A DNA stretch of 64,000 bases from a virus: IMG/VR virus record IMGVR_UViG_3300030117_005585, positions 1-64,000 of that record; one strand, given 5' to 3'. Shown here one piece after another: positions 5,497-60,738 of this stretch. The notes below the pieces were generated by a model that was not told where the DNA came from, ran no database searches, and was given only the letters and a program-made list of their open reading frames with translations. The position numbers and the translations under genes are program-made. Position 1 is the stretch's first letter. Each line of letters starts with the position of its first letter.

Positions 5497-5984
5497 TATA
5501 TACTCCTAACTCTCTCTATTTGTACCGAGCTCTTTCTTACTAAAAATGCGGTTGCAACAACTGAATAGTTTTGGTCAAACATCCCACCAATTAACTGATT
5601 TTCATTTATTGAGCCCACTTCAAAATATCCATAGTTCCAATCTATTAAATCTCCCAACTCCAAAACCATACTAGCATCGATAAAAGATTGTCGTAAAAAT
5701 GAAAATGTTGCATTCTGATTATTACTCGCACCGAATTCGTCTTCATTGTAATCAAAGTCTTCTGCAGCAACGATACAATTCATTTGAACTCCATTTTTGT
5801 AAATCCTATTACCATTAGAAGCCTCACCATACATATTGGTTGCTGACTCCTGTAATGATGGTTTATAAATAACAACTTCTTGATTTATTAATCCATCCTT
5901 ATTATTTTGTTTGTCACCAACCAATTCTTTGGTTACTCTGGTTATAAGATTGATGTCTTTTTGAGGTAAAAATCTACCAGCCAT
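5496..5984 (-). CDS. Neck/head-closure protein (gp14-like)
   Basis: TNMYGEA and ELGDLIDWNYGYFEV motifs; synteny between gp13-like and gp15-like genes. Confidence 0.6.
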   Translation of the reverse strand: MAGRFLPQKDINLITRVTKELVGDKQNNKDGLINQEVVIYKPSLQESATNMYGEASNGNRIYKNGVQMNCIVAAEDFDYNEDEFGASNNQNATFSFLRQSFIDASMVLELGDLIDWNYGYFEVGSINENQLIGGMFDQNYSVVATAFLVRKSSVQIERVRSI

Positions 5985-52183: not shown

Positions 52184-52212
52184 AAGGGGAGTGAAAACTC
52201 CCCTTTTTTTTT
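52184..52212. terminator. Bidirectional intrinsic terminator between convergent genes
   Basis: AAGGGGAGT-GAAA-ACTCCCCTT followed by a T tract. Confidence 0.85.
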
Positions 52213-52972
52213 ATTCTCTAGTTAAAGAGCCTGTATAAGATACATCAACGACACCCTCTTTTTCGAATTCAGAATATAATCTCTTATTATACTTTTTCAT
52301 AACATTAATAATACGAGTTATATGTTGTGTATTAGAACCTGTCATTTCTCGAATAAGAATATACAGTGCCTTTTTATTGAAGTTTTCTAAGTTTTGTTTT
52401 ATCCTAAAGAGATGTAGTACAGAGTCGGCAACTCTAATATCTTTATCTCTACGAAATATATTTGTTAGATTATATTCCCAAAATCTAACCAACTCTTCTG
52501 TAAATAAAGAATTAATTTCGGTTCTCTCACTTAAATTAGTTTCACCTGTTATGTTTCTTTTATAATCTAAAACATCTATTCCATCGTGTATCTTACCCAT
52601 TTTGTAATTCTTATTATTATTTAGAATAAGGTAGTTTTTAGCAACAATACTAAAGTAAGAAAATGCTTTTCCTTTACCTTCTTTAAATTTGTGCATGTTC
52701 ATCACAAGAAAAGATACCACTTCATTCTTTACTTCTTCAGATGTTGTATCGAAGTAATAAAACTTAAACGTATGAATTATGTTCTCTGCTAATTTATCAA
52801 AAGCAGCTCTTATATGTTCATTGTAAATCTTATTTCTTAAACTTGGACTGTCACTATTATTATATCTTATTATTGCTTTCTCAGTTCCCTGATGAAAATA
52901 ATAGTTCTTTGGTCTCTTCTTTCTTTTCTTTCTTTTCTTTGCTACTGAGCCTGATGTTTGCATTGATGGCAT
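52211..52972 (-). CDS. Late-transcription sigma factor (T4 gp55-like)
   Basis: NYYF...KLAENII..F.F..Y...E.V......KF...KGKAFSYFSIVAKNYL parallels gp55 region 2 (NPFAYFT). Confidence 0.7.
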   Translation of the reverse strand: MPSMQTSGSVAKKRKKRKKRPKNYYFHQGTEKAIIRYNNSDSPSLRNKIYNEHIRAAFDKLAENIIHTFKFYYFDTTSEEVKNEVVSFLVMNMHKFKEGKGKAFSYFSIVAKNYLILNNNKNYKMGKIHDGIDVLDYKRNITGETNLSERTEINSLFTEELVRFWEYNLTNIFRRDKDIRVADSVLHLFRIKQNLENFNKKALYILIREMTGSNTQHITRIINVMKKYNKRLYSEFEKEGVVDVSYTGSLTRE

Positions 52973-53229
52973 TACTGTTGTTCTCCTCTAAAGTTATCTA
53001 ATTGTTTTATTATATTTTTTATTTCATCAAAGATTACACCTGTTTCATCATCAGATTCAAATGAACCTCTGTAATCTATTTTTTTCAAATCAAATTGAAT
53101 TTTTTCTACTGCTTCCATAAAATTTGAAACCCAATCTTCTAACATTTCTTGTTTGAGATTTAAATTCCATATCACATAACAAGATGTTAAAAACAGTAAG
53201 GTTACAATTGTAAAAGATACTTCTAACAT
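52972..53229 (-). CDS. Small membrane-anchored hypothetical protein
   Basis: N-terminal TM; IDYRGSFESDDETGVIF. Confidence 0.6.
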   Translation of the reverse strand: MLEVSFTIVTLLFLTSCYVIWNLNLKQEMLEDWVSNFMEAVEKIQFDLKKIDYRGSFESDDETGVIFDEIKNIIKQLDNFRGEQQ

Positions 53230-54005
53230 TACTTGGTTTCTCCAAAGAGTTCATCAAAAAGGTCTTGTGACTTAGAACTCAGTTTAGGTGATGGTTCAGA
53301 TTTCTTCTCTCCGTTAACCGCTTTCTTCATATTCGTAGTAAGGTTTGTATTATAGTCTTCATCTGCTCGTTTCCATTCGTCACCTTCGATGTGTGTTGCC
53401 ATCATATCGGCTTGATGAAGTATGTATGCTATATTGGATTTCAACGCCCAATCAGGATTGTAACTAAGGTAGTAGGTTTTATTTGCTTCCTCATACAAAC
53501 CATCAGTTAAACGTAATCCGATATATTCCCATTGTGTCATTGGAATACCGAAGTGATTTAAAAGAAAAATAGCTCGGTCGGTAACAGACATATATTGAAG
53601 TTTCGGATTGTGTTTGAATATCTCACCTCTATTCTTACGATGCCATTCGGAGTCTTGTGGTATATAATAATCTTCATCTAAATCACCAACCTTACCTAAG
53701 TCGTGATGCATAGCAGCGAAGATAAGTTCCTCATCGGTGAAGTTGATGGTGGCTCCATTTTTCTCCCACAGCTCTTTGATTTGAAGAGCTGAATCAACTA
53801 CATGCAACACATGCTCTACATAACCACCTACCATAGCATTGTGATAAGCTGCCTTACCACTGGCTGGTGCTACTGACATTCTATCTTCAAAGTAGACATA
53901 CATAGTCTTAAGCTTTTTTAATCTATCTCCTTCGAATGTATCTTCTATAAGTTTCATTAACTTATTCCAATTCTCTACTATTTGTTGTTCTGAAAGTTGT
54001 TTCAT
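53229..54005 (-). CDS. HD-domain phosphohydrolase (YhaM-like HD domain)
   Basis: APAS...HNA..GGYVEHV...HHDLGKVG...HQAD. Confidence 0.85.
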   Translation of the reverse strand: MKQLSEQQIVENWNKLMKLIEDTFEGDRLKKLKTMYVYFEDRMSVAPASGKAAYHNAMVGGYVEHVLHVVDSALQIKELWEKNGATINFTDEELIFAAMHHDLGKVGDLDEDYYIPQDSEWHRKNRGEIFKHNPKLQYMSVTDRAIFLLNHFGIPMTQWEYIGLRLTDGLYEEANKTYYLSYNPDWALKSNIAYILHQADMMATHIEGDEWKRADEDYNTNLTTNMKKAVNGEKKSEPSPKLSSKSQDLFDELFGETK

Positions 54006-54322
54006 CTTATTCTCCTAAAAGTATTTTTTACTAATTTAAATGGATATCTTCCTGGCACATAGCCGTTTGTTTTTTTGTTCCAATTAAGCATTTCTTTTTT
54101 GATTTTTTTACCCCAACCAATATATTCTAGTTCTTCTTTGGGTTGAAACTCCCACCATTGTGTTTCTATATCCTTAGCATCATTTAATATATTAAGCATC
54201 GCCACAGCTTTACTACCTATCTTACTTACTAAGTAAGCAGCATCTTCTTCGTTTGAAGCATAATATACTTCTTTATCTTCCTTAAAAGCCTCAGGTGTCC
54301 AACTCACAATGTATGGTTTCAT
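54002..54322 (-). CDS. Hypothetical protein
   Basis: 106-aa ORF coupled on both sides. Confidence 0.6.
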   Translation of the reverse strand: MKPYIVSWTPEAFKEDKEVYYASNEEDAAYLVSKIGSKAVAMLNILNDAKDIETQWWEFQPKEELEYIGWGKKIKKEMLNWNKKTNGYVPGRYPFKLVKNTFRRIR

Positions 54323-55660
54323 TTATCTAACCTCATAACCGCTTTTTGTTAATTTAATTGTTGGTTCTTCTCTAAGTCTATTTCTATAGATGTCAAAAGG
54401 TATTCCTCTACCCCAACCAAGATAATCCATAATTTGTTCTTTAGTTACCGAGCCAACTTTGTGAATGTAATTTAATATTTTGTTATAACCATCTGTATCT
54501 TTTTTTACTTTTTTGAATTTCTCTTCCGCTCTTACAAAATGACTATTATACTTTTTTATAATATTTTCCCACGAGTTTTCTTTTCCTAATTCTATACACC
54601 TATTGGAATATTCTTCTCTTAGATTTTCGTTATCTAACATCATATTCATCTTCTTTAGAAACTCTTCATCTTTATCAAAATAAATACCAGCATTCTCAGC
54701 ATACTGTGAATAGTAGTCAGCATTGTAGAATATATAAGGTACACCAACTGCCATACCATCAGAAGCAGAGTTAGCCCAACCCGTATGGTGTGATTGTCCA
54801 CACACACCAACCCAACATTTAGATAACTCTGTAAAGTAACCTTGTCTATCAAATTTTTTATTGTAGATATACTCTCTATCTATTGAGTCTGATAAAGGAA
54901 CCCATGCCGTAAAGTCTTTTCTCTGTTCCCATAATTTATCAATCTGTTGTAGAAACCAAGGATAACTTTTATAACTATTAGCCCTATGATTCCAAACTAT
55001 TATCTTTGGTTCTTTTTGTGGTTTCTTTCGTGGGCCTTCTACATTATCCCAACCACGTGGTAGTGGTTCTATCTTATCTTTCAATATCTCCACATCACTA
55101 TCTGGCAAGCAAGTCGGTGCGTTCTCTATTATAGTATCTTTCACTGCTTGTGAGTTAACACCACAACTGTTCATAGACATCAAACCAGCATAGTGCTGTC
55201 TAAGTAAACTAGCTTCATAACCAGTAGTCTTTGGTATTTCTATATATGCATCGTAACCAAATATTACAGGTCTGCAGTTAGTCAAATTTCTAAAATGATT
55301 CTCCAACTGTAATGTATGTTCTGGCAAATATGTATATAAAAAATCCCAATCTTTAGTTTTGAAATCAGTTATTTTAGATAACTGATAAGTATCAAAATGT
55401 TGTCTCATCTCATTTGGATATGTAGGTTGTTTGTAGATAATCTGTTCAGTATTTTCATATTGAAAGCCTGGCATAATTTCAGGAGTTAATACTACAAAAA
55501 ATATATCCGGCCTTAACTTTGTTAAATGTTTTAAAATGTTAGACATTATTATGTAGTAACTATCCTTAGTAAAATCTTTTTGAAAGGTTATATTAGGATA
55601 AACTAAACATCTAAAAGGATATTCTCTATCCTCATCGGTATCTTGAAAGAAGTTGTTCAT
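54323..55660 (-). CDS. GT-B fold glycosyltransferase (GT4-like)
   Basis: NSQAVK, IVWNHR...K, GWANSASDGMAVGVPYI and SWE; small C-terminal helical domain. Confidence 0.8.
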   Translation of the reverse strand: MNNFFQDTDEDREYPFRCLVYPNITFQKDFTKDSYYIIMSNILKHLTKLRPDIFFVVLTPEIMPGFQYENTEQIIYKQPTYPNEMRQHFDTYQLSKITDFKTKDWDFLYTYLPEHTLQLENHFRNLTNCRPVIFGYDAYIEIPKTTGYEASLLRQHYAGLMSMNSCGVNSQAVKDTIIENAPTCLPDSDVEILKDKIEPLPRGWDNVEGPRKKPQKEPKIIVWNHRANSYKSYPWFLQQIDKLWEQRKDFTAWVPLSDSIDREYIYNKKFDRQGYFTELSKCWVGVCGQSHHTGWANSASDGMAVGVPYIFYNADYYSQYAENAGIYFDKDEEFLKKMNMMLDNENLREEYSNRCIELGKENSWENIIKKYNSHFVRAEEKFKKVKKDTDGYNKILNYIHKVGSVTKEQIMDYLGWGRGIPFDIYRNRLREEPTIKLTKSGYEVR

Positions 55661-56928
55661 TATTTAATTTCGAGAGGATTTTTAGAATTTATAACTACTT
55701 TACCACTTGACTTTTCATACCATTCTCCAACTAAAATTTTAGATGTTGGATTATGATATAAAGCAGGCAAACCCATTTTACAACCTCTCCATTTTCCACC
55801 GACAGGTCTCCAATCTTCTTTTTTTACATATGCTAAAATTACTACTACTCTATCAACATTATCTTCATAACCAATAAATACTGTCCAAGCATCTCTTTCA
55901 GTATCAGCGCCTGTTGAAAATTTGGTTAGAGAGGGGTTATCAGTAATTTTACTTGCTTTAATTTCCATAGAATCGAAAAACAGAGGAAAGAACCAATCTG
56001 GATCATTTACTGATGTTGATGTTTCAACTTTTAAATTAGGGTTTACCATCTCTATACATTCCCCACCAATAATCATAAATTGGTCGGATACTAATCCACT
56101 TCTTGTTTTTGTTTCAAGTTTTGGGCCAGGTGTAATAATTTTCTTCTTACCATTGTGAGCCAATCCAATTTCTATTTTATCATGTTGATGAATATAATTT
56201 CTAACAGCAATACAAGTCATTAAAGCCATTTCTGTAGTATATATACTCTCAAAATCAGTATTTCCTTGATATTGTGGAGTATTAACTTTTTTTGGAGTTG
56301 GTGGAAATAACAAATCAAAAGCTTTTGAATATTTCATACCATCATCTATTTTTTTTAAATATGTCTGCCCCTGATTATGTTTACCAATTCTCCAAAGCTT
56401 TTTTATATAAGTCAAAGATTTATTAGAATCATCTTTCCATAAATAGTCATAAATTGATTCAATATTTATTTTATCTTTTCCTTTTACTAATCTCATTTTT
56501 TCATGTACTAACTTTATCTGATTAAAAGTTCTAACTGCACTGTCTTTACGAACTCTTGAAGCTGCTTCCAACACTTGAATTGCATTTAAAGGATCGCTTA
56601 AATCTAAGTCAGTTTCATATTCAGTAATCTTCATCCAATTATGATCTTCGCCGGTATCCTTATCAATACCATTATGAAAACTATCTCTTGTTTCTTTCTT
56701 CTCAAACCACCTAGTATGGCCAGAAACCACAGTTCCAGCAGGATAAGGACCATTTTTCTTTTTCAAAACTGATGGTGGATGTATTAAACCAACTCCATTG
56801 TCAATTGTTTCTGATATATGTTGCGTATCATACTCATTACTTTGCCAATCGTCATTCAATGCGTGTTTCTTTAGAGAATCTATATGTGCATATAAAACAC
56901 CGTCTATAACTTTTGTTTCGTATTTCAT
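55660..56928 (-). CDS. ParB/Srx-like N-terminal domain fused to a PD-(D/E)xK endonuclease-like domain
   Basis: IDSLKKHALN...GLIHPPSV...VVSGHTRW (ParB-like GxxR); C-terminal NDPDW...MEIKAS. Confidence 0.55.
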   Translation of the reverse strand: MKYETKVIDGVLYAHIDSLKKHALNDDWQSNEYDTQHISETIDNGVGLIHPPSVLKKKNGPYPAGTVVSGHTRWFEKKETRDSFHNGIDKDTGEDHNWMKITEYETDLDLSDPLNAIQVLEAASRVRKDSAVRTFNQIKLVHEKMRLVKGKDKINIESIYDYLWKDDSNKSLTYIKKLWRIGKHNQGQTYLKKIDDGMKYSKAFDLLFPPTPKKVNTPQYQGNTDFESIYTTEMALMTCIAVRNYIHQHDKIEIGLAHNGKKKIITPGPKLETKTRSGLVSDQFMIIGGECIEMVNPNLKVETSTSVNDPDWFFPLFFDSMEIKASKITDNPSLTKFSTGADTERDAWTVFIGYEDNVDRVVVILAYVKKEDWRPVGGKWRGCKMGLPALYHNPTSKILVGEWYEKSSGKVVINSKNPLEIK

Positions 56929-56949
56929 TTATTATTTCCTAATTGTTAA

Positions 56950-58143
56950 TTATCTACCTACTTCTGATAGGTACATTTCTTTAGTTTCTTCCCAAGTCTT
57001 TCCTACGATATCTCCGTAGAAAAGTTTTTCAGGCTTCAATCTATTTTCGTCAAATAATTTACTGTATCTTCTGATAGCTTTAGGTTTCCACCAATTAATA
57101 ATGTAATCGCTATCATCACTATACTTTTTCTTCATCTTCAAATCTTTTTCTTCTATCTCTCCACGCAAAAACTCTCTACCATTTTCATATATGTCAGCGT
57201 AGAAGATACCTCTTTTAAATCCATGTTGGTAATCAGAACCCTTCACACCAACTGCTTTAAAAATCATATTAATTGTTTTTTGTTTCACACCTGTAGGAGG
57301 ACCGGCAACCCCTTCTTTTTGAGTAGTTTGTCTAAGGTACTCATCTTTTTGGTTTTCTTTCAACCACTGATGCCATACATCATAAGTGGAATCATCAGGC
57401 TTCAGTGCTATTCTACCTTTAGACTCACCAAGTGTTTTCCAAAGTGGAATACTGTTATACATTGAGTGTATGCCGTATAGGGATGTGGTTGATGCTCCTA
57501 CTAAGGTCTGACCATAAGTCTCTTTCCAAGCATCTCTAACTACTGATGATGTTACGAAACAAGCCACCAACTTACCACCTAAGAAATTGAATCCCAATGG
57601 TTGAGCACAACATATCGTTGTACCTATGGAAGTATATTTAAGTTTACCATCTTTAAATTTATTTTCTTTTGTCCATCCAATATAGTTATCTCTGGCACCT
57701 AATGAAGTAACATCTGAACCCATACAAACAATTCCTAATATTTTGCCAGTTACTTTATCTTTCAAATAAAACTTTAGGTTTCTGCCAGGGTTAGCAGTAA
57801 ACTCCATAGTGTGAATCAACCTACGAACTAATGTCCACTCTTCATTGTGTTTAGCATTACCTTGTTCTGTCATTTCTAAGTAAGGTTCTAATGCTTCGAT
57901 TTCTTTTATGGTTTGTTCTTTATTATTTATATCAGTAGGTGTCCAAATAGACTTTTCTATCTTAGAGAACTGAGTTGCTTTCTGAGTCATAGAGTAAACA
58001 TCAGCATTAAACTCTTGCCATTTCTTATATAGTGTTTGTTCTTGTACAGACATAGACTTTAGAAAGTCTAAGTTATCGATAAACTTCTTGCGTTCAGCTT
58101 CGAAGTCAAATTGTGGCTCGTCAAAAAAATTGTTAAAACCCAT
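56950..58143 (-). CDS. DUF4338/DruA-like protein (Mom-like GNAT-fold candidate)
   Basis: PGRNLKFY, ILGIV.MGSDV, RDNYIGW, QPLGFNFLGGKL, WKETYG, TTSLYG, SMYN and WKTLGESKG. Confidence 0.75.
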   Translation of the reverse strand: MGFNNFFDEPQFDFEAERKKFIDNLDFLKSMSVQEQTLYKKWQEFNADVYSMTQKATQFSKIEKSIWTPTDINNKEQTIKEIEALEPYLEMTEQGNAKHNEEWTLVRRLIHTMEFTANPGRNLKFYLKDKVTGKILGIVCMGSDVTSLGARDNYIGWTKENKFKDGKLKYTSIGTTICCAQPLGFNFLGGKLVACFVTSSVVRDAWKETYGQTLVGASTTSLYGIHSMYNSIPLWKTLGESKGRIALKPDDSTYDVWHQWLKENQKDEYLRQTTQKEGVAGPPTGVKQKTINMIFKAVGVKGSDYQHGFKRGIFYADIYENGREFLRGEIEEKDLKMKKKYSDDSDYIINWWKPKAIRRYSKLFDENRLKPEKLFYGDIVGKTWEETKEMYLSEVGR

Positions 58144-58195
58144 TTTAATTCCTGTTAATTTTCAATAGTTAAATAGCCTAGCTGGCCAAAAGTTG

Positions 58196-58267
58196 AGCGG
58201 AGGGTAGGAGTCGAACCTACATCTCTTCTTTGGAAAAGAAGTGTGTTTCCTATAACACTTCCCCCGC
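58196..58267 (-). tRNA. tRNA-Gly(TCC), atypical (A8/U14), CCA not encoded
   Basis: GCGGGGG AA GTGT TATAGGAA ACAC A CTTCT TTTCCAA AGAAG AGAT GTAGG TTCGACT CCTAC CCTCCGC T. Full cloverleaf with U73 discriminator. Confidence 0.92.
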
Positions 58268-58310
58268 AATAATATATATATTTAAATTTCACCAAATACA
58301 AATATTTTTT
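58268..58310 (-). promoter_or_regulatory. Promoter class II driving tRNA-Gly and the downstream operon
   Basis: AAAAAATATTTGTAT-N17-TATATATTATT, ending immediately before the tRNA 5' G. Confidence 0.75.
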
Positions 58311-58320
58311 CAACAACCCA

Positions 58321-58554
58321 CTAAACAAGTGGGTCGTTGAATGTATCATAGTCTTCAGAATCGAAGGAAGAACTCTCATAGTACCCAGCAGGCACATCAA
58401 GTACTTCATCCAACGAATCCATACCATCATCATAGTCTGATATCCCTGTGAGGGAATCATCAGGACCAATGACAGGTACATCAATGATTTTGTCAAGACC
58501 GAAGTCTTTGAGTTGATTATCATCTACGATGAAATCATTTACATCTATTTTCAT
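58321..58554 (-). CDS. Highly acidic small hypothetical protein
   Basis: 77 aa, Asp/Glu-rich; AAAGGAAAA leader like other early genes. Confidence 0.6.
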   Translation of the reverse strand: MKIDVNDFIVDDNQLKDFGLDKIIDVPVIGPDDSLTGISDYDDGMDSLDEVLDVPAGYYESSSFDSEDYDTFNDPLV

Positions 58555-59001: not shown

Positions 59002-59514
59002 TTAGAAATCACCTGGCGCTACCTGAAATGTATTTAGTCCTAAATCTCTCCACATTTTGACAACTTTATCTCTGTCATCTACAACAAGAAATACATCATC
59101 AATATCTACAAAAGCATCTAACATTTTTCTTTTCAAAATTTCATCAGGTGCGAATCTCCAATTTGAAACTGCGGGATTACCGGCAGCTACAGGAAAATCA
59201 TCCTTCTGATATTTGTCTGGTCTCATAACCAATAAGTCGTAAGGTACATCATTCCACTCTAACCATTCTTTTGTCCTATCAAACATTCTATCATTTCTGC
59301 CTGAAAATATAACAATCTTAAATCCATCTTGTTTGAACAACTGAGCCATTTTTATTACTGGCTCATTTGGTTCATCGAATGCTATATGGGCTGGATTGAA
59401 AAACTCATTCCAATTCATCTTACCATTTTTACCCATTTTGAGTGCATGGTCTCTTCGTCTATCTATGTTAGCCAGAGTACCATCTAAATCGAATATGACT
59501 GTATTTTTGTCCAT
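59002..59514 (-). CDS. HAD phosphatase (T4 PseT/PNK phosphatase-domain-like)
   Basis: FDLDGTLA, FSGR, LVMRP, D..K and VDDRDKVVKMWRDLG. Confidence 0.88.
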   Translation of the reverse strand: MDKNTVIFDLDGTLANIDRRRDHALKMGKNGKMNWNEFFNPAHIAFDEPNEPVIKMAQLFKQDGFKIVIFSGRNDRMFDRTKEWLEWNDVPYDLLVMRPDKYQKDDFPVAAGNPAVSNWRFAPDEILKRKMLDAFVDIDDVFLVVDDRDKVVKMWRDLGLNTFQVAPGDF

Positions 59515-60312: not shown

Positions 60313-60329
60313 TTTTTTCCTAAAGGTTG

Positions 60330-60738
60330 TGGAGCTGAGGGGAGTCGAACCCCTGTCCAAGTAGTTTTCTTCAATAAGTCATTTACAGCTTAGCTGGTTT
60401 CCATCGGTAGAAACCAGCAAACAACCATGTGGATTCCTTTTACTCAGAACATACCCTTTAACTGATATACTTTATACTCGCATATTAGAGTTGGTGTCTA
60501 ACTCATTTTATGACCGAGTGTTAGACAACTCAGTAACTTATGCAGCGTATGCGTAAGTTGGTTGGTCTTGATTATAAGCAACCATAGGTGAGTAATCATA
60601 CTCAGCTAAATGCCAATCAATTACCAACCCGTCTAGCGATTCATCGCCAATTAGGTTAGTTGAGTTTTATTTAAGAGTCTACTCAAACTCTGCTGCACTT
60701 AATTGTCAAATAACACCTGTCGAAACCATTACAGCCCC
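60330..60738 (-). ncRNA. ssrA: tmRNA (transfer-messenger RNA)
   Basis: 5' GGGGCTGTAATGGTTTCGAC; 3' GGGGTTCGACTCCCCTCAGCTCCA with G3-U Ala identity; internal tag ORF ending YAYAA-stop (60538-60648). Confidence 0.93.

What the first reader, a model, noticed from the sequence alone, without database searches (positions are those of the whole stretch)
52211..58310. Candidate tRNA-dependent DNA hypermodification/restriction operon: atypical tRNA-Gly + DUF4338 (Mom-like GNAT) + ParB-endonuclease + glycosyltransferase
Seen: one class II promoter directly precedes tRNA-Gly. The DUF4338/DruA-like gene starts 52 nt after the tRNA, followed by closely spaced or overlapping genes for a ParB-PD-(D/E)xK fusion, a GT-B glycosyltransferase, an HD hydrolase and the late sigma factor, ending at one terminator. 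Known: FemABX-type GNAT enzymes use Gly-tRNA(Gly) as donor. Phage Mu Mom is a GNAT-fold adenine-modifying enzyme that, as I recall (verify), has been reported to use Gly-tRNA. ParB-like domains and glycosyltransferases recur in phage DNA-modification loci. Inference: the phage makes a dedicated glycyl donor tRNA for a Mom-like base modifier, possibly glycosylates the product, and encodes a nuclease that spares modified (self) DNA.
Basis: partly seen in the sequence, partly recalled or inferred. Interest (0 to 1): 0.9.

Follow-up and report, generated by a model that had tools for sequence, protein, structure and literature searches.

The report
Glycine tRNA paired with Mom-like enzyme

Summary
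The sequence features are real: a conserved promoter, tRNA-Gly(UCC), a DUF4338/DruA gene 52 nt later, then tightly packed genes ending at a terminator.

The DUF4338 model (pLDDT 94) is a GNAT. Mu Mom (8bv8) is its best match among 48,161 solved chains (Z 9.9-10.0, next 8.7-8.9). There is no sequence-level link to the Mom family.

A tRNA within 300 nt upstream of DUF4338 is always tRNA-Gly. It occurs at three places on the DUF4338 tree, but 90 of 111 distinct homologues lack it. It is the only tRNA in this record and in a 165-kb relative. HTVC008M and S-SSM7 also have a lone tRNA-Gly 3-4 kb from DUF4338. Relatives carry 2-3 true Mom genes.

The six genes are not one system:
- The ParB-like/PD-(D/E)xK protein is near-orphan cargo in a swap slot that holds restriction-modification genes in relatives.
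- The glycosyltransferase is a fast-evolving slot gene.
- The HD gene and the supposed sigma factor are backbone genes also found in a phage without DUF4338. The sigma call is unsupported.

Tentative best reading (about 0.4): a tRNA-Gly plus Mom-like transferase module. The main rival (about 0.33) is a CoA-dependent GNAT next to an ordinary decoding tRNA.

The scan has noted this same unit on other DNA.

The parts
58268..58301 (-). Sigma-70-like promoter TTGTAT (58301-58296), 17-nt spacer, TATATA (58278-58273), then 5 nt to the first base of the tRNA
   Evidence: Read. The motif and its spacing are conserved upstream of the tRNA in about 20 related loci whose more distal upstream DNA is unrelated. 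It scores below the threshold of the generic scan.
58195..58267 (-). tRNA-Gly(UCC). It carries G1-C72, C2-G71, G3-C70, U73, C35 and C36, a canonical T-loop and G18G19. The tertiary pair is swapped to A8/U14. CCA is not encoded.
   Evidence: ARAGORN and Rfam RF00005 at 60.4 bits. The alignment of 18 copies shows many compensatory stem changes and an invariant A8/U14. It is the only tRNA in the 77.7-kb record and in the 165-kb relative G001.
58174..58188 (-). Small conserved hairpin (UGGCC, 5-nt loop, GGCUA) just 3' of the tRNA. It could be a processing site or a weak attenuator.
   Evidence: It is the centroid structure, although the energy z-score is not significant. It is conserved, with compensatory changes (L168 G-C to A-U, L157 C-G to U-A), across the window clade and L045.
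56950..58143 (-). DruA/DUF4338-family protein, 397 aa. It has a GNAT core at about residues 80-343 with a three-helix insertion between beta6 and beta7, plus helical N- and C-terminal extensions.
   Evidence: Pfam PF14236 E 3.9e-25, PADLOC DruA, AF2 pLDDT 94.2 and pTM 0.90. Mom 8bv8 is rank 1 in the structure searches: Z 9.9 with 167 residues aligned and Z 10.0 with 178 aligned. All other top hits are GNATs.
55660..56928 (-). Near-orphan 422-aa protein: a ParB/Srx-like N-terminal part (SGHTR) plus a PD-(D/E)xK nuclease-like C-terminal part (D309, D311, E322-x-K324). This is the genome's cargo in the swap slot.
   Evidence: One homologue (91% identity) in 5.8 billion proteins and none in 83 loci. 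ESM Atlas gives ParB_N look-alikes and TM 0.79 to a cluster in which 21% carry RE_ScaI. The motifs are invariant in alignment A5. AF2 failed.
54323..55660 (-). GT1-family (GT-B type) glycosyltransferase, 445 aa. It is a semi-conserved but fast-evolving resident of the slot.
   Evidence: Pfam PF00534 E 1.4e-3, below the cut-off. PHROG glycosyltransferase 6.8e-4. ESM Atlas 0.99. A gene of this GT cluster is present in most of the 44 distinct island versions, at 27-87% identity.
54002..54322 (-). 106-aa protein of unknown function (slot gene)
   Evidence: ORF. Its only clear homologue is in L006 (40% identity). No family hit.
53229..54005 (-). HD-type phosphohydrolase, 258 aa. It is a backbone gene, not part of the unit.
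   Evidence: Pfam HD 19.8 bits against a cut-off of 22. PHROGs 5889 and 28876. It is conserved at 49-83% identity in most loci. Its homologue in phage immuto, which lacks DUF4338, is annotated phosphohydrolase.
52211..53229 (-). Backbone genes of 85 aa (52972-53229) and 253 aa (52211-52972).
   Evidence: No family hits. No similarity to gp55. Homologues occur in Flavobacterium phage immuto and Microcystis phage Mel-JY01.
52180..52209 (.). Bidirectional intrinsic terminator closing the gene array
   Evidence: 13 pairs on the plus strand and 9 pairs on the minus strand, each followed by a T-rich tail.

Best explanation
The finding contains three separate things.

1. A conserved core unit. An early sigma-70-like promoter fires at the first base of a chargeable tRNA-Gly(UCC). 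A small hairpin follows, and 52 nt after the tRNA comes a DruA/DUF4338-family GNAT gene, probably read from the same promoter.

2. A swap slot downstream of that gene. In this genome it holds an orphan ParB-like/PD-(D/E)xK nuclease, a fast-evolving GT1 glycosyltransferase and a small ORF. In relatives the same slot holds restriction-modification genes.

3. Backbone genes (HD hydrolase, 85-aa and 253-aa proteins) that belong to neither.

The mechanism I think most likely for the core unit is inferred, not shown. The GNAT would work like Mu Mom: it would take glycine, or another acyl group carried on the tRNA's 3' end, from Gly-tRNA(Gly) and put it on a nucleic-acid base, probably in phage DNA. 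The phage tRNA would top up the glycyl-tRNA pool for this enzyme and for the 2-3 true Mom paralogues that relatives of this phage carry. The same tRNA would still be able to decode GGA.

Shown here: the anatomy, the fold, the linkage statistics and the Mom genes in relatives. Inferred: the donor, the target and the co-transcription.
For: Fold:
- The AF2 model has pLDDT 94.
- Mom 8bv8 is rank 1 of 48,161 chains, at Z 9.9 against 8.7 for the next. It is rank 1 again on the second look, at Z 10.0 with 178 residues aligned.
- The helical insertion sits between beta6 and beta7, the topological site of Mom's essential insertion.

Linkage:
- Every locus at 80% identity or more that has upstream DNA carries tRNA-Gly about 52-60 nt before DUF4338. 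The more distant L045 and L139/142/146 lineages carry it too.
- No other isotype is ever adjacent, although Ala, Cys, Glu, Tyr and Thr tRNAs occur in the same loci.
- All 19 occurrences of this tRNA's D-arm in 2.9 million viral contigs lie next to DUF4338.
- The unit keeps its promoter, hairpin and spacer while the DNA on both sides varies.
- It is the sole tRNA in G000 and in the 165-kb G001.
- The sole tRNA of HTVC008M is a tRNA-Gly 3.9 kb from its DUF4338, and that phage has no Mom.
- In S-SSM7 four tRNAs cluster elsewhere, while tRNA-Gly sits alone 3.2 kb from DUF4338.
- L017 carries a second, canonical tRNA-Gly(UCC) besides the adjacent one.

DNA context:
- In three cyanophage genera DUF4338 lies between the clamp-loader genes gp44 and gp62.
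- In the window's family it borders a slot of methyltransferases and restriction enzymes.
- Relatives carry Mom-family genes at E 1e-44 to 1e-50. In G001 they retain H58, Y59, R111, S124, D149 and Y159.

Precedent:
- Mom uses Gly-tRNA(Gly) (PMC13219725).
- Staphylococci keep dedicated tRNA-Gly species for Fem transferases (PMC7826273).
Against: - There is no sequence-level relation to Mom. The HMM of A1 against PDB sequences finds nothing, hhalign of A1 against the Mom family gives probability 0.3%, and PF25680 does not match.
- By secondary-structure register, Mom's R111, S124, D149 and R151 have no obvious equivalents.
- DUF4338 keeps a conserved glycine-rich Q181-P-x-G184...G189-G190-K191 loop between beta4 and alpha3, the position of the acyl-CoA pyrophosphate loop of ordinary GNATs. 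Mom lacks such a loop.
- Mom's margin over generic CoA-dependent GNATs is only about 1 Z unit.
- 90 of 111 distinct homologues have no adjacent tRNA.
- Mosig has DUF4338 but no tRNA-Gly at all.
- The tRNA looks fit for translation: canonical T-loop, G18G19, U33 and A37.
- Its anticodon variants, UCC and ACC, match the two commonest Gly codons: GGA 27% and GGT 59%.
- Its T-stem pairs are not consistently weak binders of EF-Tu.
- The three adjacent lineages may descend from a single ancestral arrangement, so the number of independent events is small.
- The window's own record holds no Mom gene.
Confidence: 0.4

Rival explanations
1. Ordinary GNAT plus ordinary tRNA. DUF4338 is an acyl-CoA-dependent acyltransferase with an unknown target (protein, small molecule or nucleic acid), expressed early. 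The tRNA-Gly is a normal decoding tRNA that helps an AT-rich phage read its Gly codons. The two are neighbours only because they share one strong early promoter at the edge of a recombination-prone region.
For: - The conserved glycine-rich loop sits at the GNAT motif-A position.
- All structural neighbours other than Mom are CoA-dependent GNATs within about 1 Z unit.
- The tRNA has canonical features and many compensatory changes.
- UCC and ACC match GGA and GGT, which together make up 86% of Gly codons.
- 81% of homologues lack the tRNA.
- tRNA-less relatives drive DUF4338 from their own TTGACA-N17-TATATT promoter.
- Mosig has DUF4338 without any tRNA-Gly.
Against: - The adjacent tRNA is always Gly and never another isotype.
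- It is the only tRNA in 165 kb of G001.
- A lone tRNA-Gly sits close to DUF4338 in two unrelated phage groups.
- L017 carries a second, canonical tRNA-Gly with the same anticodon, which is hard to explain by decoding alone.
- Mom is the single best structural match.
Confidence: 0.33
2. The tRNA-Gly serves the true Mom paralogues of this phage lineage, which are known-type Gly-tRNA users. DUF4338 is an unrelated neighbour.
For: - Relatives in all three tRNA-bearing lineages carry 2-3 PF25680 genes wherever the contig is long enough: G001, G003, G014, G015 and G016.
- In G001 the key Mom residues are mostly retained.
- G004, which is complete and has 2 Mom genes, carries tRNA-Gly(GCC) among only 5 tRNAs.
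- Immuto has no Mom and no tRNA-Gly.
Against: - HTVC008M has tRNA-Gly as its sole tRNA and no Mom.
- In S-SSM7 the Mom gene follows an Ile-Thr-Arg-Leu cluster, while tRNA-Gly lies near DUF4338 instead.
- In the window's lineage the Mom genes lie tens of kilobases from the tRNA.
- Mu Mom works with host tRNA.
- The marine paralogues lack R151, which is essential in Mu Mom.
Confidence: 0.12
3. All genes from the tRNA to the terminator form one hypermodification/restriction system: DUF4338 glycylates DNA, the glycosyltransferase decorates the product, and the ParB-nuclease cuts unmodified DNA.
For: - The genes are tightly packed and co-oriented between one promoter and one terminator.
- The slot carries restriction-modification genes in relatives.
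- The nuclease has no partner methyltransferase in this genome.
Against: - The nuclease is absent from all 83 related loci first compared.
- Glycosyltransferase alleles vary from 27 to 87% identity, and some loci have none.
- HD and the downstream genes occur without DUF4338 in immuto.
- The restriction-modification cargo in relatives brings its own methyltransferase.
- No hydroxymethylase was found in the clade, though the records are incomplete.
Confidence: 0.04

Closest known systems
Bacteriophage Mu Mom (Pfam PF25680; PDB 8bv8), a Gly-tRNA(Gly)-dependent GNAT that makes N6-carbamoylmethyl-adenine in dsDNA (PMC13219725)
   Same: Both have a GNAT fold, and Mom is the best structural match (Z 9.9-10.0). 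Both have a helical insertion between beta6 and beta7. Both are phage-encoded. The window's gene has a glycine tRNA in its immediate context, and true Mom genes occur in the same phage lineage.
   Different: There is no detectable sequence homology, and the two belong to different Pfam families. Mom's catalytic R111, S124, D149 and R151 are not recognisably kept. DUF4338 has a glycine-rich motif-A-like loop that Mom lacks. It is about 160 residues longer, with extra helical ends. It is expressed from an early-type promoter, whereas mom is a late gene. Mu carries no tRNA of its own.
DruA (DUF4338, PF14236) of type I Druantia anti-phage systems
   Same: It is a clear family member by HMM (89 bits; PADLOC DruA 4.9e-23). 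The Aravind group has called DUF4338 a GNAT domain (PMC10853773).
   Different: It is encoded by a phage, alone, with no DruB-E partners. The biochemical function of DruA is itself unknown.
Staphylococcal non-proteogenic tRNA-Gly (NP1-3), which feed the FmhB/FemA/FemB GNAT-fold transferases (PMC7826273)
   Same: In both cases a tRNA-Gly(UCC) with unusual D-arm features is kept beside the normal decoding supply and is associated with a GNAT-fold enzyme. One relative (L017) carries both a canonical and an atypical tRNA-Gly(UCC).
   Different: The T-loop and G18G19 are canonical here. The T-stem pairs that set EF-Tu affinity vary among relatives and include strong G-C pairs. Nothing shows that the tRNA avoids the ribosome.
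Accessory-gene hotspots ('swap slots') of T4-like phages that carry restriction-modification, homing-endonuclease and glycosyltransferase genes, and GmrSD-type nucleases with a ParB-like (DUF262) domain fused to a nuclease
   Same: The slot lies at one fixed position between conserved genes and has very varied cargo: an EcoRI-like enzyme with a Dam-like methyltransferase, an N6_N4 methyltransferase with ResIII, a GmrSD_N-like protein, and an HNH endonuclease. The window's cargo likewise combines a ParB-like domain with a nuclease domain.
   Different: The window's nuclease domain is of PD-(D/E)xK type, not the DUF1524 His-Me type. The protein is a near-orphan, and its specificity is unknown.

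Membership tests
Mom family (PF25680) | Match to the Mom profile or detectable sequence homology | tested here: not met
   PF25680 is not among the Pfam hits. There is no match in the whole record at E<=1. hhalign of the DUF4338 alignment against a 39-sequence Mom alignment gives probability 0.3%. The profile against PDB sequences gives no Mom hit.
Mom family (PF25680) | GNAT fold with an extra helical (HTH-like) insertion before the last strand, essential in Mom | tested here: met
   Mom 8bv8 ranks first at Z 9.9-10.0, with 167-178 residues aligned over model residues 80-329. DSSP shows beta 236-240, three helices at 251-298, then beta 312-317. Whether the two insertions are homologous was not resolved.
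Mom family (PF25680) | Catalytic residues R111, S124, D149, R151 (also H58, Y59, Y159) | tested here: inconclusive
   No residue-level superposition was available. By secondary-structure register the equivalent sites read Q181-P182, G189-G190-K191 and T219-T220-S221. Only the alpha4 tyrosine (Y229, invariant) has a counterpart.
Mom family (PF25680) | Uses Gly-tRNA(Gly) as donor and dsDNA adenine as acceptor | not testable with these tools
   This needs biochemistry. Only gene-context evidence was obtained.
DruA / DUF4338 (PF14236) | Profile match above the curated cut-off | tested here: met
   89 bits against a cut-off of 27, E 3.9e-25. PADLOC DruA1 at 4.9e-23. phrog_19197 at 1.1e-27.
Druantia type I defence system | DruA accompanied by DruB-DruE, including the large DruE helicase | tested here: not met
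   None of the eight neighbouring proteins matches any PADLOC model at E<=0.1.
Acyl-CoA-dependent GNATs | Q/R-x-x-G-x-G/A pyrophosphate-binding loop between beta4 and alpha3 | tested here: inconclusive
   A conserved Q181-P-x-G184-x-N186-x-x-G189-G190-K191 lies at that position. It resembles the motif but does not equal it, and no ligand modelling was possible.
Non-proteogenic tRNA-Gly (staphylococcal NP type) | D- and T-arm features that lower EF-Tu and ribosome use, while GlyRS identity is kept | tested here: inconclusive
   The GlyRS elements are present and the A8/U14 swap is invariant. The T-loop is canonical, and pairs 50-64 and 51-63 vary, with G-C/G-C in L010. Binding was not testable.
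ParB/Srx N-terminal domain (PF02195) | Profile match or the conserved GxxR motif in a ParB-like fold | tested here: inconclusive
   There is no Pfam hit even at E<=10. ESM Atlas feature and structure look-alikes carry ParB_N. G70 and R73 are invariant in relatives at 20-22% identity. AF2 failed.
PD-(D/E)xK nucleases | D...(D/E)-x-K catalytic motif in a restriction-endonuclease-like fold | tested here: met
   D309, D311, E322 and K324 are invariant across four divergent homologues. The C-terminal part scores TM 0.79 to a cluster in which 21% carry RE_ScaI. The motif is met; the fold rests on the Atlas model only.
GT1 / GT-B glycosyltransferases (PF00534) | Profile match to the C-terminal Rossmann domain | tested here: inconclusive
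   18.7 bits against a cut-off of 26.4. PHROG glycosyltransferase at 6.8e-4. ESM Atlas 0.99 with 237 of 256 features shared with clusters in which 92% carry PF00534. It is probably a member, but the acceptor is unknown.
T4 gp55-type late sigma factor | Similarity to gp55 or to sigma regions | tested here: not met
   The 253-aa protein has no Pfam, PHROG or NCBIfam hit. BLASTP against gp55 of Mosig and HTVC008M gives E 0.40 and 0.24.

The most novel reading that the evidence does not exclude
DruA/DUF4338 would be a second, sequence-unrelated family of aminoacyl-tRNA-dependent nucleic-acid-modifying GNATs. Abundant marine T4-like phages would carry a dedicated tRNA-Gly, transcribed with the enzyme, as its glycyl donor. 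They would make a Mom-like adenine adduct, or a new one, in their DNA. The same chemistry would then also explain the unknown role of DruA in type I Druantia defence.
Probability: 0.25. Interest if true: 0.9.

Novelty: new variant of a known kind. Interest (0 to 1): 0.62.

Why it matters
Mom was shown only in 2023-2026 to modify DNA using charged tRNA, and it is so far the only enzyme known to do so. A second family with the same fold, physically tied to a glycine tRNA, would broaden that chemistry. This family is very common in ocean phages: more than 3,000 homologues were found in metagenomes, and it lies inside the clamp-loader operon of cyanophages.

If confirmed, the link would have several consequences:
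- It would give the first known case of a virus encoding its own acyl-donor tRNA for DNA modification.
- It would offer a biochemical handle on DruA in Druantia defence.
- It would affect how marine viromes are sequenced and cut by restriction enzymes.

The experiment to test it is direct and cheap.

If the link is false, the finding reduces to a well-documented accessory-gene hotspot beside an uncharacterised acetyltransferase.

Tried and rejected
- DNA search of the region against 50,697 phage records found no match.
- tblastn of the 422-aa protein against phages found none.
- phmmer of DUF4338, the glycosyltransferase, HD and the 422-aa protein against PDB sequences gave nothing meaningful. 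The same was true for the profiles of A1 and A5.
- Foldseek against the PDB gave only weak GNAT rows (best E 6e-3, Mom at rank 38). The exhaustive aligner was needed to rank Mom first.
- hhalign of DUF4338 against Mu Mom alone gave a 17-residue match (E 0.052). I rejected it because its register (offset 115) disagrees with the structural alignment (offset about 97).
- AF2 of the 422-aa protein from a two-sequence alignment failed (pLDDT 27.9).
- The search for related loci with P0128 found nothing.
- The first DNA pattern for the tRNA had too few specified bases.
- Thymidylate synthase or hydroxymethylase (PF00303) and ThyX searches in the window's record found nothing. Among relatives, only G004 has a ThyA-type gene. 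The records are 42-79% complete, so this does not exclude a hydroxymethyl-pyrimidine pathway.
- The spacer hairpin is not energetically exceptional (z 0.58). Its only support is conservation with covariation.
- I first read the A34 (ACC) variants as a sign of relaxed decoding constraint. I rejected this because ACC matches GGT, the commonest Gly codon.
- Short contigs of DUF4338 occur in marine metatranscriptome libraries of three studies. None bridges the tRNA-gene junction. The one contig that does bridge it (57817-58248) is from a run of unknown type. There is therefore no evidence on co-transcription.
- The supplementary files of the Mom paper are not held, so the two active 'Mom homologs' could not be compared.

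Full report
WHAT THE RECORD IS. The window is the first 64 kb of a single 77,753-bp viral record with about 34% G+C, estimated 42% complete. All long ORFs lie on the minus strand. Its relatives are uncultured marine T4-like myophages with contigs up to 178 kb. Some backbone genes match Flavobacterium phage immuto.

OBSERVATION: THE tRNA AND ITS FLANKS. ARAGORN and Rfam find one tRNA, tRNA-Gly(UCC), at 58195-58267 on the minus strand, and a tmRNA at 60329-60738. An element TTGTAT-N17-TATATA-N5 lies immediately upstream of the tRNA. It is conserved in position and sequence in about 20 related loci whose more distal upstream DNA is unrelated, so a promoter that fires at or next to the tRNA's first base is well supported. 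A 5-bp hairpin follows the tRNA and shows compensatory changes in relatives.

OBSERVATION: THE GENE ARRAY. A 397-aa ORF (56950-58143) starts 52 nt after the tRNA. It is a clear DruA/DUF4338 family member (Pfam 89 bits, cut-off 27; PADLOC DruA). It is followed, with gaps of -4 to +21 nt, by ORFs of 422, 445, 106, 258, 85 and 253 aa and a strong bidirectional terminator. The ORF at 58155-58523 overlaps the tRNA, and its apparent conservation is just the tRNA DNA.

THE DUF4338 PROTEIN: FOLD. More than 3,000 homologues exist in metagenomes, and 1,086 representatives at 50% clustering match it. An AF2 model built from 58 diverse sequences is confident (pLDDT 94.2, pTM 0.90). Foldseek gives only weak GNAT hits. 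An exhaustive alignment against 48,161 PDB representatives puts phage Mu Mom (8bv8_B) first: Z 9.9, rmsd 3.9 A, 167 residues, model 80-329 against Mom 20-232. Generic GNATs follow at Z 8.7 and below. A second look over Foldseek's top 1000 chains again ranks Mom first: Z 10.0 with 178 residues aligned, against 8.9 for the next. The model has three helices inserted between beta6 and beta7. This is the site of the HTH-like insertion that is essential in Mom.

THE DUF4338 PROTEIN: NO SEQUENCE LINK TO MOM. The resemblance stops at the fold. Neither the DUF4338 profile against PDB sequences, nor hhalign against a 39-member Mom alignment (probability 0.3%), nor the Pfam Mom model detects any relation. 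DUF4338 also keeps a glycine-rich Q-P-x-G...G-G-K loop where ordinary GNATs bind the pyrophosphate of acyl-CoA. Mom has no such loop. The fold claim is therefore supported, and 'Mom-like' holds as nearest neighbour. The donor substrate stays open.

LITERATURE. Mom transfers glycine from Gly-tRNA(Gly) to adenine N6 of dsDNA, after which the adduct rearranges to N6-carbamoylmethyl-adenine (PMC13219725). Staphylococci keep non-proteogenic tRNA-Gly species for the Fem transferases (PMC7826273). Only four papers in the library mention DUF4338. One of them calls it a GNAT domain (PMC10853773). None links it to tRNA.

LINKAGE: ADJACENCY IN VIRAL CONTIGS. Across 171 loci with a DUF4338 match, 43 have a tRNA within 300 nt upstream on the same strand (several are duplicate fetches of the same contigs). 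In all 43 it is tRNA-Gly. Ala, Cys, Glu, Tyr and Thr tRNAs occur elsewhere in the same loci. Every locus at 80% identity or more with upstream DNA has it.

LINKAGE: POSITION ON THE TREE. On a tree of 111 distinct DUF4338 proteins the adjacency occupies three places: the window's clade (19 rows, support 99), L045, and L139. 90 rows lack it. The tRNAs of the three places share A8 and the G10-U13 stem, so one ancient arrangement with later losses is as likely as repeated gain.

LINKAGE: THE REVERSE TEST. All 19 exact matches to this tRNA's D-arm pattern in 2.9 million viral contigs are on contigs where it abuts DUF4338.

LINKAGE: WHOLE GENOMES.
- The tRNA is the only one in this record and in the 165-kb relative G001.
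- HTVC008M's only tRNA is a tRNA-Gly(ACC) 3.9 kb from its DUF4338.
- In cyanophage S-SSM7 four tRNAs cluster at 216 kb, while tRNA-Gly sits alone 3.2 kb from DUF4338.
- Against this, Mosig has DUF4338 but only Pro, Arg and Leu tRNAs. S-SCSM2R and G004 have their tRNA-Gly far from DUF4338.
- A rough post-hoc estimate, with three of about six lineages having tRNA-Gly within 4 kb in genomes of 150-230 kb, gives a chance probability near 1e-3. The sample is small and was not drawn blind.

IS THE tRNA SPECIAL? It has full GlyRS identity (G1-C72, C2-G71, G3-C70, U73, C35, C36), a canonical T-loop, G18G19, and abundant compensatory stem changes. It is therefore a working glycine acceptor.
- Its one constant oddity is the swapped tertiary pair A8/U14.
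- Position 34 is U or A. These read GGA (27% of Gly codons) and GGT (59%), which fits decoding.
- One relative (L017) carries both this tRNA and a canonical tRNA-Gly(UCC).
- L139 has a second tRNA-Gly-like gene with a six-base anticodon loop in tandem.
Nothing shows that the tRNA avoids the ribosome.

THE REST OF THE 'OPERON': SWAP-SLOT CARGO. The 422-aa protein has a single homologue (91% identity) in 5.8 billion proteins and none in the 83 loci first compared. Later, three island ORFs at 20-22% identity were found. They share an invariant GxxR and D..D...E-x-K. Together with the ESM Atlas look-alikes (ParB_N, and a cluster in which 21% carry RE_ScaI), this supports the ParB-like plus PD-(D/E)xK reading at motif level. 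AF2 failed.

THE REST OF THE 'OPERON': THE ISLAND IN RELATIVES. The stretch between DUF4338 and the HD gene is a hypervariable island of 6 nt to 4.8 kb, with 44 distinct versions. Most versions include a glycosyltransferase of 360-473 aa belonging to one cluster, at 27-87% identity to the window's. Depending on the phage, the island also holds:
- an N6_N4 methyltransferase with a ResIII helicase;
- an EcoRI-like endonuclease with a Dam-like methyltransferase;
- a lone Dam-like methyltransferase;
- a GmrSD_N-like protein;
- an HNH endonuclease;
- a PLOD-type glycosyltransferase;
- many ORFs with no family hit.
The nuclease and the glycosyltransferase are therefore slot cargo, not fixed partners of DUF4338.

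THE REST OF THE 'OPERON': BACKBONE GENES. The HD gene and the 85-, 253- and 128-aa genes are conserved in nearly all loci. They recur in Flavobacterium phage immuto, which has no DUF4338, glycosyltransferase, Mom or tRNA-Gly. The 253-aa 'late sigma factor' has no family hit and no similarity to gp55.

NEW CONTEXT: TRUE MOM GENES IN RELATIVES. G001 (DUF4338 89% identical) has three. G003 has three. G014 has two, G015 and G016 have two each, G004 has two and G005 has three, all at E 1e-36 to 1e-50. The G001 paralogues keep H58, Y59, R111, S124, D149 and Y159 of Mu Mom, but not R151. By synteny with G003, the nearest Mom gene would lie about 42 kb upstream of DUF4338, which is beyond the end of the window's record. 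Its absence there is therefore uninformative.

NEW CONTEXT: WHAT IT IMPLIES. This phage lineage very probably modifies adenines in the Mom manner. That gives a second possible customer for a phage tRNA-Gly. HTVC008M has no Mom and carries tRNA-Gly as its sole tRNA. In S-SSM7 the Mom gene sits beside a different tRNA cluster while tRNA-Gly sits near DUF4338. Both cases argue that the tie is to DUF4338. In three cyanophage genera DUF4338 lies between the clamp-loader genes gp44 and gp62, which is an independent hint at a DNA-directed role.

VERDICT. It is wrong in extending that idea to a six-gene machine.
- DUF4338 is a Gly-tRNA-dependent nucleic-acid modifier served by the adjacent tRNA: about 0.35-0.4.
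- It is a CoA-dependent GNAT beside an ordinary decoding tRNA: about 0.33.
- The tRNA serves only the Mom paralogues: about 0.12.
- The full operon model: below 0.05.
Earlier follow-ups of this scan on other genomes reached compatible conclusions. New here are the Mom paralogues in the same lineage, the sole-tRNA observation, the reverse pattern test, and the S-SSM7 and HTVC008M parallels.

Noticed in passing
window 60329-60738 (-): Phage-encoded tmRNA (Rfam 106 bits, full length). tmRNAs with related tags (…YAYAA) lie 1-2 kb upstream of the tRNA-Gly in many relatives (L004, L005, L017, L019-L021, L045, L053).
   Followed up: partly
window 59002-59514 (-): HAD-type PNKP phosphatase domain protein (Pfam PF25109, 7e-29). 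It lies at variable distances upstream of the tRNA in relatives, so the DNA upstream of the tRNA-DUF4338 unit is also variable.
   Followed up: partly
window 58155-58523 (-): This ORF overlaps the tRNA gene. Its tblastn 'conservation' in relatives coincides exactly with the tRNA, so it is probably not a gene. The acidic 77-aa ORF at 58321-58554 is the more likely upstream gene.
   Followed up: partly
window 58102-58143 and 55619-55660 (-); relatives: DUF4338 proteins start with a conserved aromatic-acidic peptide (M-x-F-x-D/N-F-F-D/G-E...F-D-F/Y). The slot glycosyltransferases start with a similar one (MNIFDFT, MNNFFQD, MDNFFEH). It might be a shared docking motif, for example for the sliding clamp. 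This is untested.
   Followed up: partly
L139:5803-5874 and 5886-5958 (also L142, L146): Two tandem tRNA-Gly-like genes lie directly upstream of DUF4338. The first (Rfam 36 bits) has a six-base anticodon loop and T-stem mismatches. It is either a decaying copy or a tRNA that cannot decode normally.
   Followed up: partly
L017:4188-4259 and 5568-5640: One relative carries two tRNA-Gly(UCC) genes: a canonical U8/A14 one 1.4 kb upstream, and the A8/U14 one next to DUF4338.
   Followed up: partly
L002:10947-11020 (Pelagibacter phage HTVC008M): The phage's only tRNA is a tRNA-Gly with the rare anticodon ACC. Its T-loop reads AGCGUUA instead of UUCGAAU, and its D-loop has no GG (lowest Rfam score of the set, 49.5 bits). 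It lies 3.9 kb downstream of DUF4338 in a genome without Mom.
   Followed up: partly
W05 (Synechococcus phage S-SSM7) 216422-217392: The single Mom-family gene follows a cluster of Ile, Thr, Arg and Leu tRNAs by about 100 nt. So a true Mom gene also sits next to tRNA genes, but not next to tRNA-Gly.
   Followed up: partly
L132:8811-10635; L024/L125:7191-9894; L009:3292-4137; L017:7052-8818; L005:7298-8197: The slot downstream of DUF4338 carries complete or partial restriction-modification sets in relatives: an EcoRI-like enzyme with a D12 methyltransferase, an N6_N4 methyltransferase with ResIII, a lone Dam-like methyltransferase, a GmrSD_N-like protein, and an HNH endonuclease.
   Followed up: yes
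L187:724-1485, L187:3168-3809, L188:761-1534 (record G001): Three Mom paralogues in a close relative keep most catalytic residues of Mu Mom but replace R151, which is essential in Mu, by E, H or Q. They may have a different chemistry or specificity.
   Followed up: partly
L087:4160 region: ARAGORN calls a tRNA-SeC(UCA) beside tRNA-Ala and tRNA-Thr about 3 kb downstream of DUF4338 in a relative. This fits another first-stage note of a possible phage selenoprotein in this genome.
   Followed up: no
L001:5355-5909 and L002:5382-5909: In pelagiphage Mosig, DUF4338 directly follows a gene annotated as peptide deformylase and lies about 5 kb from the gp55 late sigma gene. HTVC008M has an unannotated gene in the same position. 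In Mosig a MazG gene follows DUF4338.
   Followed up: no
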